Sequence record: PZ402302.1
Length of the DNA: 39,751 nt
Direction: 5' to 3' (one strand)
Origin: a phage
The notes under the pieces were generated by a model. The model ran no database searches. It saw nothing but the letters and a program-made list of their open reading frames with translations, and was not told where the DNA came from. The position numbers and the translations under genes were made by a program. Below, piece by piece: positions 3,229 to 6,987 of the stretch; positions within the stretch are counted from its first letter, which is position 1; each line of letters starts with the position of its first letter.

Positions 3229-3251
3229 TAATACGACTCACTATTGGGAAG
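3229..3251 (+). promoter_or_regulatory. phage RNAP promoter (phiOR-like)
   Basis: taatacgactcactattgggaag; 17/17 T7-like core except T at -1; sits between gene 19 and 19.5 as phiOR does in T7. Confidence 0.85.
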
Positions 3252-3795: not shown

Positions 3796-3975
3796 TCTCA
3801 TAGTTCATACCAAGTGGTTTCCCCCTGTGGGTAACTCTGTGGATAACCTGAGGATAACTCTGTGGATAACTTGTGGATAACTCTAGGTTAGAGGCTGTGT
3901 GGATAACTTTGGGTGAGACTGTTAGTAACTCTGTGGATAACTCTGTGTCTCTGTGTCCCTATCTGTAAGTGACCT
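3796..3975. repeat. putative terminal repeat (single collapsed copy; concatemer junction / physical genome ends)
   Basis: Start tctcatag...ttccccctgtggg and end gtgtctctgtgtccctatctgt...acc resemble recalled first and last bases of the T7 160-bp terminal repeat; flanked by short-repeat arrays; lies between 19.5 and phiOL. Confidence 0.5.
3838..3940. repeat. array of TGTGGATAA repeats (complement of DnaA-box TTATCCACA): 5 perfect copies + 1 one-mismatch copy
   Basis: Perfect copies at 3838, 3861, 3872, 3898, 3932; tgAggataa at 3849; all same orientation, extended consensus ctgtggataact, 11-12 bp spacing for the first four. Confidence 0.8.
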
Positions 3976-4600: not shown

Positions 4601-4645
4601 ATAACTCAAGGTCGCACTGAAAGCGTGGCCTTTATGATATTCACT
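4601..4645 (+). promoter_or_regulatory. RNase III-type processing hairpin (R0.3-like)
   Basis: ataactcaaggtcgcactgaaagcgtggcctttatgatattcac: conserved aactcaagg...ggcctttatgat frame 25 bp upstream of gene 0.3. Confidence 0.7.
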
Positions 4646-4671: not shown

Positions 4672-5130
4672 ATGATTTTCACTAAAGAGCCTGCTAATGT
4701 CTTCTATGTACTGGTGTCAGCTTTCCGTTCCAACCTCGACGATGAGGTGAATATGAGTCGTCACCGCCACATGGTAAGCACTTTACGTGCCGCACCGGGT
4801 CTTTATGGCTCCGTTGAGTCAACCGATTTGACCGGGTGCTATCGTGAGGCAATCGCAAGCGCACCGACTGAGGAAAAAACGGTTCGTGTACGCTGCAAGG
4901 ACAAGGCGCAGGCACTCAATGTTGCACGCTTAGCTTGCAATGAGTGGGAGCAAGATTGCGTACTGGTATACAAATCACAGACTCACACGGCTGGTCTGGT
5001 GTACGCTAAAGGAATCGACGGTTACAAGGCTGAACGTCTGCCGGGTAGCTTCCAAGAAGTGCCTAAAGGCGCACCGCTTCAAGGTTGCTTTACGATTGAT
5101 GAGTTCGGTCGCCGCTGGCAAGTACAGTAA
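4672..5130 (+). CDS. 0.3: S-adenosylmethionine hydrolase/lyase (T3 gene 0.3-type SAMase; anti-restriction), 152 aa
   Basis: MIFTKEPANVFYVLVSAFRSNL...CFTIDEFGRRWQVQ matches recalled T3 0.3 SAMase almost residue for residue; first early gene after the sigma70 promoters; not Ocr-like. Confidence 0.9.
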   Translation: MIFTKEPANVFYVLVSAFRSNLDDEVNMSRHRHMVSTLRAAPGLYGSVESTDLTGCYREAIASAPTEEKTVRVRCKDKAQALNVARLACNEWEQDCVLVYKSQTHTAGLVYAKGIDGYKAERLPGSFQEVPKGAPLQGCFTIDEFGRRWQVQ

Positions 5131-5202: not shown

Positions 5203-5487
5203 ATGCGTTTAAGTAAAGATACAGCGGTGGCACTACGCTCAGCAATTGAATCCAAAGCTGCACACAACGTGGGAGGTCTTGCGGATATTGCACGGGCTTA
5301 TGAGGAGAAAGGTCTAACATTCCGTCGATTTATGTGGGACTGTTACCACGCAGTAGGCTTTCAAGAAACGACCAGAATAATCTCTGAGCACAACACGGTT
5401 ACGTTAATCGGTGGACACCTAACAGACGTGACTGATGCACACATCGAAACAATACTCAAGGTTGCGCTTAAAGATTTGCAATACTAG
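5203..5487 (+). CDS. hypothetical early protein, 94 aa
   Basis: ATG with RBS aaggaag; bracketed by RNase III-type hairpins; MRLSKDTAVALRSAIESKAAHNVGG...; no recognisable T7 0.4/0.5 similarity. Confidence 0.65.
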   Translation: MRLSKDTAVALRSAIESKAAHNVGGLADIARAYEEKGLTFRRFMWDCYHAVGFQETTRIISEHNTVTLIGGHLTDVTDAHIETILKVALKDLQY

Positions 5488-5639
5488 TGATAAACTCAAG
5501 GTCGCTCCATGCGAGTGGCCTTTATGATTATCACTTTGAAACAACGCACGGGATTAATATCAAGTGATAAACTCAAGGTCGCTCCATGCGAGTGGCCTTT
5601 ATGATTATCACTTTGAAACAACGCACGGGATTAATATCA
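5486..5639. repeat. perfect 2 x 77-bp tandem duplication, each unit carrying an RNase III-type hairpin
   Basis: 5486-5562 and 5563-5639 are identical; each contains aaactcaaggtcgctccatgcgagtggcctttatgattatcac; starts in the stop codon of the 94-aa ORF and ends at the ATG of the 0.6A-like ORF. Confidence 0.9.
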
Positions 5640-5776
5640 TGCTGAAATCTTATGTTATGCCTATCCATACACGCAACGGGGCAACAGTTTGCACACCTGA
5701 TGGCTTCGCAATGAAACAACGAATCGAACGCCTTAAGCGTGAACTGCGCACAAATCGCAAGATCAACAATATCTAA
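5639..5776 (+). CDS. 0.6A: gp0.6A-like small early protein, 45 aa
   Basis: MLKSYVMPIHTRNGATVCTPDGFAMKQRIERLKRELRTNRKINNI closely matches recalled T7 gp0.6A; ORF-track 5564 start is a GTG extension inside the repeat. Confidence 0.65.
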   Translation: MLKSYVMPIHTRNGATVCTPDGFAMKQRIERLKRELRTNRKINNI

Positions 5777-5889
5777 ATCTAATTACATTTGACACTGGAG
5801 AATGCACAAAGTGAGCGCTAGCGACATTATGGGCGCTCTCTCTCTCTCTCTCCCTCTTAAAGTCAACTAACTAAATAGGACACAATCTA

Positions 5890-6987
5890 ATGAACTACAC
5901 CGACATTCAGGCACGTCTGGCAATCATCAAGTCTCTCCCGATTAGTGAACTGGACAAGCGCCAGCCTCTTCTGGTTGCACTGGCTGCTGACATCGTGAAC
6001 GGTGAGACAAGTGATGGCAACGATACTGATGGCTCAAATGGCTTGGAGTATCAAGACTGGTGGCACACATTGGGTGCACTAATGCGTGATGCAGGTTTCC
6101 GCATGTTAGGTAATGGTCACTTTAGCGCGGCCTACTCGCATGAACTGTTACCGGGTCGAGTCATCAAGGTTGGCTTTAAGAAAGAGGATTCAGGCGCTGC
6201 ATACACCGCATTCTGTAGGATGCACCAAGGTCGAGCGGGTATCCCTAACGTCTATCACGTAGCACGTCATGCAGGTTGCTACACGGTTGTTCTTGACAAG
6301 CTGTTAGCATGTGACCGCGATAATTATGACCATGAGGTATACGCTGACCTAGCACGTTACTTTGTGGAGTCGGATTGCCATGACGCAAGCGACTTTGCAC
6401 CGGGTGACTACGAGTTCATTGAGACCTGCCAGCTTATCCGCAAGTTCTTCAAAGGGATTGCATCGTTTGACATGCACAGCGGGAACATTATGTTCTCTGA
6501 AGATGGCACACCATACATCACTGACCCGGTTAGCTTCTCACATGACCGTGAACGTGAGGACGGCTTCCCTCTGGACCCGGATGCACTGATTGCCGAGGTC
6601 GAGGCAATAGCTAACGAGCGCATCATTGAACGTTGCCGCAACCGCAAGGCCAAGTGTGACCCTAACGGCTCCTTTCAGGTTAACCGCAAGGCCGCAATGA
6701 AACGCCGCAAGCGCAACCGCAAGTTACGTGCTAAACATGCAGCGGAAGGAATGCACCAGTTTGTCAAAGGGCGTCTTGAGCGTAGAGCTATTGACCGCAA
6801 CGAACGCCGTGCTGAGATGTTCATGGGGTCTGCATGGCGCGACTTTTGGTTACGCAACGGTAACGCAACGGTCCGCAAGATTGACCAAGTGAACGGCCTC
6901 AAGTGGCAACTAGGGGACCGCCTAGCAATCCAAGCGGGTCTACCTCTGAACATCGACAAGTTACTTGACGCACAACTGAAAGGCTGA
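5890..6987 (+). CDS. 0.7: serine/threonine protein kinase / host transcription shut-off protein (T7 gp0.7-like), 365 aa
   Basis: Conserved blocks LPICELDKRQ, MLGNGHFSAAYSH, RVIKVGFKKEDSGAAYTAFCRM, IASFDMHSGNIMFS, ITDPVSF shared with recalled T7 gp0.7; immediately upstream of gene 1. Confidence 0.9.
   Translation: MNYTDIQARLAIIKSLPISELDKRQPLLVALAADIVNGETSDGNDTDGSNGLEYQDWWHTLGALMRDAGFRMLGNGHFSAAYSHELLPGRVIKVGFKKEDSGAAYTAFCRMHQGRAGIPNVYHVARHAGCYTVVLDKLLACDRDNYDHEVYADLARYFVESDCHDASDFAPGDYEFIETCQLIRKFFKGIASFDMHSGNIMFSEDGTPYITDPVSFSHDREREDGFPLDPDALIAEVEAIANERIIERCRNRKAKCDPNGSFQVNRKAAMKRRKRNRKLRAKHAAEGMHQFVKGRLERRAIDRNERRAEMFMGSAWRDFWLRNGNATVRKIDQVNGLKWQLGDRLAIQAGLPLNIDKLLDAQLKG

What the first reader, a model, noticed from the sequence alone, without database searches (positions are those of the whole stretch)
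5777..5889. Non-coding spacer before kinase gene 0.7 with a TTGACA box, a hairpin and a (CT)n tract
The interval where T7 carries 0.6B is non-coding here. It contains TTGACA (about 5792-5797), an inverted repeat gagcgc-N14-gcgctc (about 5811-5838) and a (CT)7-8 microsatellite (5836-5852). Simple dinucleotide repeats are rare in small lytic phage genomes and may be a slippage-prone site or a deletion scar.
Basis: seen in the sequence. Interest (0 to 1): 0.22.

Follow-up and report, generated by a model that had tools for sequence, protein, structure and literature searches.

The report
Recombination scar with variable CT repeat
The 113-base gap before the phage's kinase gene is a leftover joint from a past gene swap: it holds the dead start of a T7-type kinase gene fused to the leader of the present kinase gene, with a slippery CT repeat at the seam, so it is an ordinary evolutionary scar and not a control element.

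Summary
They are TTGACA at 5789-5794, GAGCGC/GCGCTC at 5813-5818/5833-5838, and (CT)8 at 5836-5851. Only the CT tract exceeds chance.

The window is a Berlinvirus-like phage of the T7 family. Its spacer is a mosaic joint.
- Left part (5777-5840): homologous to the 0.6A trailer, ribosome-binding site and first 10 codons (GTG start) of the gene 0.7 allele of Teseptimavirus phages such as EG1, IME390 and WW2.
- Right part (from about 5841): the leader of the Berlinvirus-type gene 0.7.
- BLAST hits split into two sets that meet at 5836-5842, the first bases of the CT tract.

The CT run is a short CT-rich motif in relatives. Only three genomes share this scar, and it has 8, 6 and 4 units in the window, Carena and nasanit. 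The differences are pure repeat-unit indels, which is the signature of slippage. PZJ0206 and RN5i1 lack exactly 88 nt (relic plus CT tract) between CTAA repeats, so the segment is dispensable.

TTGACA has no -10 partner and is not conserved. The hairpin arises inside the relic. No 0.6B remnant is present.

One side observation: dinucleotide repeats ((CT)n or (AC)n) are about 10 times denser in gene 0.7 leaders than in other non-coding DNA of these phages.

The finding is ordinary and of low interest.

The parts
5639..5776 (+). Gene 0.6A homologue (45 aa). It forms the left flank of the spacer and belongs to the same imported T7-type segment.
   Evidence: ORF. 40/45 identical to T7 gp0.6A. The 3' end is 74/77 identical to the EG1-type sequence.
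5771..5782 (+). Tandem ATCTAA ATCTAA. The first copy holds the 0.6A stop codon TAA at 5774-5776. The duplication is shared with PZJ0206, RN5i1 and Yersinia phage WW2, but not with EG1.
   Evidence: Sequence; alignment.
5777..5810 (+). Leader of a displaced T7-type gene 0.7. It contains the incidental TTGACA (5789-5794) and the Shine-Dalgarno GGAG (5797-5800), which lies 10 nt before the GTG.
   Evidence: Identical to the EG1 leader, TAATTACATTTGACACTGGAGAATGCACAAA followed by GTG, over 5780-5810, apart from the 6-nt ATCTAA duplication just upstream. No promoter was called. TTGACA is at chance frequency.
5811..5840 (+). Relic of codons 1-10 of a T7-type gene 0.7. The window reads GTGAGCGCTAGCGACATTATGGGCGCTCTC; EG1 reads GTGAACGCTATCGACATCATGAACGCTATC.
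   Evidence: 24/30 identical to EG1 and 25/30 to IME390, with no homology after 5840. In BLAST, Teseptimavirus records match 5700-5840 and the match runs into their annotated kinase CDS.
5811..5870 (+). Residual 19-codon open frame from the relic GTG (VSASDIMGALSLSLPLKVN*). It is not conserved as a protein.
   Evidence: Carena gives VSAGDIMGALSLSLLKSTN* and nasanit gives VSASDIMGALSPS*. The frame after the CT tract differs because the copy-number differences are 4 nt.
5810..5841 (+). Hairpin: a 7-pair stem (5813-5819 with 5832-5838), a 12-nt loop, and two outer pairs (5810-5811 with 5840-5841). It buries the relic GTG.
   Evidence: -12.1 kcal/mol, z = -2.0. The stem is intact in Carena and nasanit, but with no compensatory changes. 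In EG1-type sequence only 4 of the 7 stem pairs would form (derived).
5836..5851 (+). (CT)8 microsatellite, part of the 23-nt polypyrimidine run at 5836-5858. It starts exactly at the recombination breakpoint.
   Evidence: The tract has 6 units in Carena and 4 in nasanit, with identical flanks. BLAST breakpoints fall at query positions 137-143, i.e. window 5836-5842.
5852..5889 (+). Berlinvirus-type leader of gene 0.7. It has stop codons in all three frames (TAA 5858, TAA 5868, TAA 5872, TAG 5876) and the Shine-Dalgarno AGGA (5877-5880), 9 nt before the ATG.
   Evidence: It aligns with the leaders of L021, L013, L018, L010 and A7, which have different genes upstream.
5783..5870 (.). The 88-nt segment that is absent from PZJ0206 and RN5i1. 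The register is ambiguous over the 4-nt CTAA, from 5779-5866 to 5783-5870. It covers the relic leader, the relic, the hairpin and the CT tract.
   Evidence: Removing it reproduces their spacer ATCTAAATCTAACTAAATAGGACACAATCTA.
5890..6987 (+). Gene 0.7 (protein kinase), Berlinvirus-type allele. It forms the right flank.
   Evidence: ORF. Annotated as serine-threonine kinase in Carena, nasanit and PZJ0206. 52% identical to T7 gp0.7 (L074).

Best explanation
The spacer is a scar left by exchange of early-region modules between two lineages of T7-family phages.

Shown by the data:
- Bases 5777-5840 are the trailer of gene 0.6A, plus the ribosome-binding site, GTG start and first 10 codons of the gene 0.7 allele found in Teseptimavirus phages (EG1, IME390, WW2).
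- From about 5841 the sequence is the leader of the Berlinvirus-type gene 0.7 that the phage now uses.
- The seam lies at GCGCT|CTC, where the CT tract begins.

Inferred:
- The joint was made by unequal crossing-over at a short shared sequence. T7 carries TGAACGCTATC both 39 nt before the 0.7 start and at codons 7-10 of 0.7. A7-type Berlinviruses carry TTGAACGCTCTTTCTTAA just before their 0.7 leader.
- The short CT-rich motif of the Berlin-type leader (CTTCTCTCTTAAAG) then grew by replication slippage to 4, 6 and 8 CT units in nasanit, Carena and this phage.
- In PZJ0206 and RN5i1 the whole relic was later removed by an 88-nt deletion between CTAA repeats.

Consequences:
- TTGACA and the hairpin are incidental features of the relic.
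- Neither the relic nor the long CT tract is needed for gene 0.7 expression.
- At most, the G-poor CU run adds unstructured RNA upstream of the Shine-Dalgarno site.
For: 1. Two-way partition of BLAST hits. Teseptimavirus-type records (EG1, IME390, PHB20, HZ2R8, CICC 80001, WW2 and others) match window 5700-5840 only, and the match runs into their annotated kinase CDS. Berlinvirus and Yersinia phage records match only from 5836-5842 to 5960.
2. Alignment A1 with segment identities. Against the EG1 type, the 0.6A 3' end is 74/77 identical, the leader 25/28 and the relic 24/30. There is no homology after 5840.
3. The relic translates as VSASDIMGA, against VNAIDIMNAI in EG1 and MNITDIMNAI in T7.
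4. The right side aligns with Berlin-type leaders that follow at least five different upstream genes.
5. CT copy number is 8, 6 and 4, with identical flanks. An independent (TC)7-8 versus (CT)3 pair occurs upstream of 0.7 in Yersinia pestis phages (L003 versus L020).
6. PZJ0206 and RN5i1 equal the window minus 88 nt between CTAA repeats, and they share the ATCTAAATCTAA duplication.
7. The microhomology TGAACGCTATC sits at T7 positions 1982 and 2040, and TTGAACGCT lies at the end of A7-type 0.6B.
8. Signs of decay. The relic is more diverged than the adjacent 0.6A (6/30 versus 3/77 substitutions, Fisher p = 0.014). The Shine-Dalgarno GGAG is GGAT in Carena and nasanit. The relic ORF ends in a different frame in each genome.
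9. No known element was detected: no sigma-70 promoter or terminator, no phage promoter, no Rfam family and no 0.6B homology.
Against: - Only three genomes carry the scar. None was found in IMG/VR or in metagenomes. Polymorphism and decay therefore rest on very few comparisons.
- The right-hand parent cannot be identified. The A7 type offers the microhomology, but the L021 type matches the leader better.
- Three of the six substitutions relative to EG1 (5815, 5833, 5838) each create a stem pair of the hairpin, which buries the relic GTG. The two sites that vary among the three genomes lie in the loop.
- A CT-rich motif is conserved in Berlin-type leaders. Dinucleotide repeats are about 10 times denser in 0.7 leaders than in other non-coding DNA of the same loci. 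This leaves room for a role in translation.
- The direction of the events (scar first, 88-nt deletion later) is inferred by parsimony.
Confidence: 0.8

Rival explanations
1. The CU tract is a functional translation element for gene 0.7. It would be an unstructured, G-poor ribosome standby or S1-binding site. Its length is then changed by slippage and tunes kinase output, working as an evolvable tuning knob. The scar origin can still be true; this rival concerns present function.
For: - A CT-rich motif sits directly upstream of the Shine-Dalgarno site in most Berlin-type leaders, whatever the upstream gene.
- 15 of 87 loci have a dinucleotide repeat of at least 4 units within 70 nt upstream of 0.7. 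These are (CT)n in the Berlin clade and (AC)n with 4-8 units in Klebsiella Przondovirus. The density is 2.46 per kb, against 0.25 per kb in other non-coding DNA and 0.03 per kb in coding DNA of the same loci.
- The G fraction at -55 to -11 is 0.13, against 0.26 overall.
- Published work: CA- and AU-repeat tails upstream of a ribosome-binding site raise translation in a length-dependent way, with a maximum at 16-18 nt (PMC5934652). AC repeats co-occur with strong Shine-Dalgarno sites (PMC3310771).
Against: - PZJ0206 and RN5i1 have no CT or AC run at all before the same Shine-Dalgarno site and the same gene. T7 has none either.
- CU repeats were not among the sequences tested in PMC5934652.
- The loci are phylogenetically related, so the counts are not independent.
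- Microsatellites may simply be tolerated in one of the few non-coding gaps.
- Here the tract is 25 nt from the Shine-Dalgarno site and lies inside a residual ORF.
Confidence: 0.15
2. The hairpin, helped by pairing of the CU tract (UCUCC) with the relic Shine-Dalgarno sequence (GGAGA), was selected to silence the leftover start site, so that ribosomes do not load on a useless upstream ORF just before gene 0.7.
For: - In the predicted folds, the relic GTG (5811 and 5813) is paired in the hairpin, and GGAGA at 5797-5801 pairs with UCUCC at 5849-5853.
- Three of the six substitutions relative to EG1 create stem pairs.
- The stem is unchanged in Carena and nasanit, while the loop varies.
Against: - The whole-spacer fold is not better than shuffled sequence (z = -0.75).
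- There are no compensatory changes.
- In Carena and nasanit the Shine-Dalgarno site has decayed instead (GGAT), which would make structural silencing unnecessary.
- AAC/AGC variation at these codons exists in intact alleles such as IME390, so the donor may already have carried the pairing bases.
- The argument is post hoc.
Confidence: 0.08
3. The spacer holds a minor host-polymerase promoter (TTGACA as the -35 element), with the hairpin as a regulatory or terminator structure. This is the functional reading implied by the first reader.
For: A perfect -35 hexamer at 5789-5794. T7 and T3 do have minor E. coli promoters (B, C) in the early region (annotations).
Against: - At 16-18 nt downstream the hexamers are GTGAGC, TGAGCG and GAGCGC, with at most 1 of 6 matches to TATAAT. 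The scan calls nothing here.
- TTGACA is at chance frequency. It is TTAACA or missing in homologous leaders and is deleted in PZJ0206 and RN5i1.
- The hairpin is followed by CU repeats, not a U run, and no terminator was called.
Confidence: 0.03
4. The spacer or the CT tract length is an assembly or sequencing artefact.
For: Dinucleotide repeats can be miscounted by some sequencing platforms. The neighbouring perfect 77-bp tandem duplication (5486-5639) could raise doubts about the local assembly.
Against: Two independent genomes from Cote d'Ivoire and Thailand have the same architecture base for base, apart from the unit number. All flanks are collinear.
Confidence: 0.03

Closest known systems
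Mosaic joints or module boundaries in phage genomes, including T7-group recombinants (for example, T3 has been described as a likely recombinant). From general knowledge.
   Same: An abrupt switch of nearest relatives at a point just upstream of a gene's translation-initiation region. A truncated fragment of the displaced allele is left at the joint.
   Different: Here the joint can be placed within about 5 nt. It retains a complete ribosome-binding site plus 10 codons of the displaced gene 0.7, and it coincides with a microsatellite.
Deletions and rearrangements between short direct repeats in the T7 early region. This is classical T7 genetics, recalled from general knowledge; the paper search did not retrieve a source.
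   Same: The 88-nt difference from PZJ0206 and RN5i1 is bounded by a 4-nt CTAA repeat. The proposed crossover uses the 8-11-nt repeat TGAACGCT(ATC).
   Different: The events are inferred from natural isolates and were not observed in the laboratory. One of them is an exchange between different phages rather than an intragenomic deletion.
Simple-sequence-repeat (contingency-type) loci that change length by polymerase slippage.
   Same: A perfect dinucleotide array whose copy number differs by whole units among close relatives while the flanks stay identical.
   Different: No on/off switching of a reading frame or promoter spacing is involved. The tract lies in a dispensable relic, and no within-population variation has been shown.
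Unstructured dinucleotide-repeat ribosome standby sites or translational enhancers ((CA)n and (AU)n tails; PMC5934652).
   Same: A G-poor, structure-free repeat of 16 nt upstream of a Shine-Dalgarno site. This is the length range that was optimal in that study.
   Different: The repeat is CU, which was not tested there. It is natural rather than engineered, it lies 25 nt from the Shine-Dalgarno site, and relatives lack it. No expression data exist.

Membership tests
Sigma-70 promoter | -35 hexamer close to TTGACA | tested here: met
   TTGACA at 5789-5794, but at chance frequency (24 observed, 30 expected).
Sigma-70 promoter | -10 hexamer close to TATAAT, 16-18 nt downstream | tested here: not met
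   The hexamers are GTGAGC, TGAGCG and GAGCGC. The scan finds no promoter in 5777-5889.
Sigma-70 promoter | Conservation of the hexamers in homologous leaders | tested here: not met
   TTAACA in L062 and L075, absent in L051 and L080, and deleted in PZJ0206 and RN5i1.
Intrinsic terminator | G+C-rich stem-loop followed by a U run | tested here: not met
   The stem is followed by (CU)8. None was called.
T7-group phage RNA polymerase promoter | Match to this genome's own 21-nt consensus ATACGACTCACTATTGGGAGA | tested here: not met
   12 matches in the window, none between 3251 and 9722.
T7-type RNase III processing site | Long interrupted hairpin with the conserved AACTCAAGGTC motif | tested here: not met
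   The motif occurs at 4603, 5137, 5493, 5570 and 10380, not in the spacer. The spacer hairpin is a simple stem of 7 plus 2 pairs.
Known RNA families (Rfam 15) | Covariance-model match | tested here: not met
   No match at E <= 1 in 5300-6100.
Gene 0.6B (T7 or A7 type) | Sequence homology to the 0.6B-specific region between 0.6A and 0.7 | tested here: not met
   Only the last 18 nt (Shine-Dalgarno region) and 7-8-nt chance words match.
Gene fragment / recombination scar | Homology to the 5' end of an intact gene in relatives, truncated at a defined point | tested here: met
   5777-5840 matches the leader plus codons 1-10 of EG1/IME390/WW2 gene 0.7. Homology stops at 5840.
Gene fragment / recombination scar | A different set of nearest relatives on each side of the breakpoint | tested here: met
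   Teseptimavirus-type records on the left, Berlinvirus and Yersinia phage records on the right. Breakpoints fall at 5836-5842.
Gene fragment / recombination scar | Relaxed constraint or dispensability | tested here: met
   Absent from PZJ0206 and RN5i1. The frame is not conserved. The Shine-Dalgarno site is mutated in Carena and nasanit. Divergence is 6/30 against 3/77, p = 0.014; this is based on small numbers.
Slippage-prone microsatellite | Perfect tandem array well above chance length | tested here: met
   (CT)8. Zero expected in shuffles.
Slippage-prone microsatellite | Whole-unit length differences between close relatives with identical flanks | tested here: met
   8, 6 and 4 units in the window, Carena and nasanit. 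(TC)7-8 versus (CT)3 in L003 and L020.
Slippage-prone microsatellite | Length heterogeneity within one phage population | not testable with these tools
   No reads are available.
Ribosome standby site / translational enhancer | Unstructured single-stranded tract upstream of the Shine-Dalgarno site | tested here: inconclusive
   The G-poor CU run is mostly unpaired in the centroid fold, but part of it pairs with GGAGA.
Ribosome standby site / translational enhancer | Length-dependent effect on translation | not testable with these tools
   Needs reporter or toeprint assays.

The most novel reading that the evidence does not exclude
Dinucleotide microsatellites in the leader of gene 0.7, (CT)n in Berlinvirus and (AC)n in Klebsiella Przondovirus, are not neutral. 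They would act as length-variable standby or S1-binding tracts that let these phages quickly retune how much host-shutoff kinase (and, through coupling on the same transcript, perhaps RNA polymerase) is made in a new host. The (CT)8 here would be one setting of that dial.
Probability: 0.1. Interest if true: 0.45.

Novelty: new member of a known kind. Interest (0 to 1): 0.18.

Why it matters
The main value is for annotation and for reconstructing history.
- The gap before gene 0.7 should not be annotated as a promoter, a regulatory hairpin or a small gene.
- It dates and places an exchange between Teseptimavirus-type and Berlinvirus-type early regions to within a few bases.
- It shows three successive small-scale processes at one site in natural isolates: microhomology crossover, repeat slippage and short-repeat deletion.

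The only wider point is the side observation that gene 0.7 leaders across Studiervirinae are unusually rich in variable dinucleotide repeats. This could be tested cheaply as a natural translation-tuning device.

Tried and rejected
- Sigma-70 promoter and terminator scan of 5300-6300: nothing in the spacer.
- Phage-promoter consensus. A T3-like guess gave no match at all. The genome's own consensus, derived from k-mers, has 12 copies, none in the spacer.
- Rfam at E <= 1: nothing.
- Pfam on gp0.7, gp0.6A and the 94-aa ORF: no families. Identities were taken from relatives' annotations and from alignment to T7 instead.
- Search for more carriers of the scar. Exact-pattern scans of IMG/VR and metagenomes found none. 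The genome scan returned 11 hits in unrelated bacteria, which are chance 20-mers and were discarded.
- Yersinia phage WX2 has a CDS annotated 'protein kinase' just upstream of 0.7, and I suspected a larger kinase relic. It is an HNH/endonuclease VII-like gene, not a kinase fragment.
- A 0.6B remnant in the spacer: rejected.
- A small conserved protein from the 19-22-codon ORF: rejected, because the reading frame after the CT tract differs in all three genomes.
- Literature searches for a prior description of this joint or of T7-group microsatellites found nothing specific.

Full report
**What is there**

The window is a circularly permuted genome of a T7-family phage. Its nearest database relatives over this region are the Berlinviruses Escherichia phage Carena (95.6% identity) and nasanit (annotations). 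The finding sits between two genes:
- a 45-codon ORF at 5639-5776, which is 40/45 identical to T7 gp0.6A;
- the 365-codon gene 0.7 kinase at 5890-6987.

TTGACA is at 5789-5794. GAGCGC at 5813-5818 and GCGCTC at 5833-5838 are separated by 14 nt. (CT)8 is at 5836-5851, inside a 23-nt pyrimidine run.

Only the CT tract is beyond chance:
- A 16-nt CT run is expected 0.00 times in shuffles. It is the only dinucleotide array of more than 5 units in the genome.
- TTGACA occurs 24 times against 30 expected.
- The hairpin is modest: -12.1 kcal/mol with z = -2.0 on its own, and z = -0.75 for the whole spacer.

**What the left half is**

I listed the 120 nt upstream of gene 0.7 in 80 related loci. One group of phages has TAATTACATTTGACACTGGAGAATGCACAAA followed directly by GTGAACGCTATCGACATCATGAACGCTATC, the start of their own gene 0.7 (VNAIDIMNAI..., against MNITDIMNAI... 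in T7). This group includes L082 (EG1), L062 (CICC 80001) and L075 (IME390).

The window reads TAATTACATTTGACACTGGAGAATGCACAAA followed by GTGAGCGCTAGCGACATTATGGGCGCTCTC. The annotated kinase CDS of EG1 and IME390 begins at this ATG or GTG.

In alignment A1, scored, the window compares with the EG1 type as follows:

| Segment | Identity to EG1 type |
|---|---|
| End of 0.6A | 74/77 |
| Leader | 25/28, plus a 6-nt ATCTAA duplication |
| First 30 nt of the kinase gene | 24/30 |
| After 5840 | none |

Yersinia phage WW2 has the same T7-type arrangement and also the ATCTAAATCTAA duplication.

So 5777-5840 is the trailer of 0.6A plus the ribosome-binding site (GGAG at 5797-5800), the GTG start (5811) and 10 codons of a displaced T7-type gene 0.7. 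The TTGACA is simply part of that leader. It is TTAACA in the IME390 and CICC 80001 types and missing in the L051 and L080 types. It has no -10 partner.

**What the right half is**

From the CT tract onward the sequence matches the leader of the Berlinvirus-type gene 0.7, CTTCTCTCTTAAAG(TCAACTAA)ATAGGACACAATCTAATG. In relatives this leader follows at least five different upstream genes.

A blastn search of 5700-5960 splits the database cleanly. Teseptimavirus-type records match query positions 1-141 (window 5700-5840). Berlinvirus and Yersinia phage records match from query positions 137-143 (window 5836-5842) to the end. The breakpoint is therefore at GCGCT|CTC, the first bases of the CT tract.

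**How the joint probably formed (inference)**

T7 carries the 11-nt repeat TGAACGCTATC twice: at 1982, which is 39 nt before the 0.7 start, and at 2040, which is codons 7-10 of 0.7. A7-type Berlinviruses, which still have 0.6B, end that region with TTGAACGCTCTTTCTTAA just before the 0.7 Shine-Dalgarno site.

An unequal crossover between the copy inside a T7-type 0.7 and the upstream copy of a Berlin-type genome would give the observed order: relic start, then GCGCT, then the CT-rich leader, then the new gene 0.7.

The right-hand leader resembles the L021 type more than the A7 type. The exact parent is therefore not identified.

**The CT tract**

The three genomes that share the scar have 8 units (window), 6 (Carena) and 4 (nasanit). 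The flanks are identical and the gaps are pure repeat units. Relatives without the scar have only (CT)2-4 at the homologous place.

A second, independent case lies upstream of gene 0.7 in Yersinia pestis phages: (TC)7-8 in vB_YpP_T3 against (CT)3 in L020.

This is the pattern expected from replication slippage. Heterogeneity within a single population could not be tested.

**Dispensability and decay**

- Enterobacter phage PZJ0206 and Salmonella phage RN5i1 have the same 0.6A, the same ATCTAAATCTAA and the same Shine-Dalgarno site and gene 0.7, but only a 25-nt spacer. It equals the window minus 88 nt (5783-5870, with the register ambiguous over CTAA). The relic leader, relic, hairpin and CT tract are therefore not required.
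- The relic is more diverged than the neighbouring 0.6A (6/30 against 3/77, p = 0.014).
- Its Shine-Dalgarno site is GGAT in Carena and nasanit.
- The residual ORF from the GTG ends differently in each genome, because the CT differences are 4 nt. The products are VSASDIMGALSLSLPLKVN*, VSAGDIMGALSLSLLKSTN* and VSASDIMGALSPS*.
- Stop codons in all three frames (5858, 5868, 5872, 5876) close every frame before the Shine-Dalgarno site of gene 0.7.

**The hairpin**

The stem (5813-5819 with 5832-5838, plus 5810-5811 with 5840-5841) lies wholly inside the relic and buries its GTG. With the EG1-type bases, only 4 of the 7 stem pairs would form. Three of the six substitutions (5815, 5833, 5838) create pairs.

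This might reflect selection to silence the dead start site. However, the argument is post hoc, there is no covariation, AAC/AGC variants occur in intact alleles, and the overall fold is not better than shuffled sequence. I treat it as a low-probability rival.

**Other readings excluded**

- No sigma-70 promoter or intrinsic terminator.
- No phage promoter. The 12 copies of ATACGACTCACTATTGGGAGA all lie elsewhere.
- No RNase III-type motif in the spacer.
- No Rfam family.
- No homology to 0.6B beyond the Shine-Dalgarno region.
- An assembly artefact is unlikely, because two independent genomes share the structure.

**A wider pattern, noted but not resolved**

Across 87 loci, 15 have a dinucleotide repeat of at least 4 units within 70 nt upstream of gene 0.7. 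These are (CT)n in the Berlin clade and (AC)4-8 in Klebsiella Przondovirus such as KP32.

| Region | Repeats per kb |
|---|---|
| 70 nt upstream of gene 0.7 | 2.46 |
| Other non-coding DNA of the same loci | 0.25 |
| Coding DNA of the same loci | 0.03 |

The leader is also G-poor, with a G fraction of 0.13 against 0.26 overall.

Published work shows that CA and AU repeat tails upstream of a ribosome-binding site enhance translation in a length-dependent way (PMC5934652), and that AC repeats accompany strong Shine-Dalgarno sites (PMC3310771). CU repeats were not tested there. The loci are related to one another, and several phages lack any such repeat. A tuning function therefore remains a minority reading.

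**Verdict**

The feature is a new example of a well-known kind, a mosaic recombination joint with a gene-fragment relic and a microsatellite, and is of low general interest.

Noticed in passing
window 5486-5639: A perfect 77-bp tandem duplication (2.0 copies, 100% identical). Each copy holds an RNase III-type interrupted hairpin (R0.5-like; -21.8 kcal/mol, z = -2.9) plus the leader of gene 0.6A. Carena, nasanit and PZJ0206 have a single copy. It is either a very recent duplication or an assembly issue.
   Followed up: partly
L024, L029, L030, L031, L041, L045, L048, L056, L077 (KP32 isolate 196), L089; 23-37 nt upstream of gene 0.7: (AC)4-8 microsatellites of variable length between the upstream stop codon and the Shine-Dalgarno site of gene 0.7 in Klebsiella Przondovirus phages. 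This parallels the (CT)n of the Berlinvirus clade. Dinucleotide repeats are about 10 times denser in 0.7 leaders than in other non-coding DNA of the same loci.
   Followed up: partly
L108 932-1387 (Yersinia phage vB_YenP_WX2, OP219460): The CDS annotated 'protein kinase' between 0.6A and gene 0.7 is an HNH/endonuclease VII-like protein (motif [24 protein letters not shown]), so it is probably a misannotated homing endonuclease. The same C-terminal coding sequence precedes gene 0.7 in L026 and L067. A homing endonuclease at this junction could help explain why it is a recombination hot spot.
   Followed up: partly
L004 1583 and 1641 (T7 record positions 1982 and 2040): T7 itself has an 11-nt direct repeat, TGAACGCTATC, bracketing the gene 0.7 start. 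One copy is 39 nt upstream and the other is at codons 7-10. EG1-type genes repeat AACGCTATC twice within their first 10 codons.
   Followed up: partly
window 3231-3251 and 3824-3947: The window is a circular permutation of the genome. The first of 12 phage-polymerase promoters (consensus ATACGACTCACTATTGGGAGA) is at 3231. An array of 11-12-bp repeats (CTGTGGATAAC) typical of the T7-group left end follows at 3824-3947.
   Followed up: no
window 5203-5487: A 94-codon ORF lies between the SAM hydrolase gene (4672-5130) and the duplicated RNase III site. It is absent from Carena, whose homology starts at window 5486. An ORF of the same size is annotated in Yersinia phages WW2 and WX2. It has no Pfam match.
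   Followed up: no
L001 about 329-346 (Carena, 1496 nt upstream of 0.7); L015; L082: (GA)7-9 microsatellites occur in the non-coding left-end region of several relatives (Carena, L015, EG1). There is no counterpart in the window.
   Followed up: no
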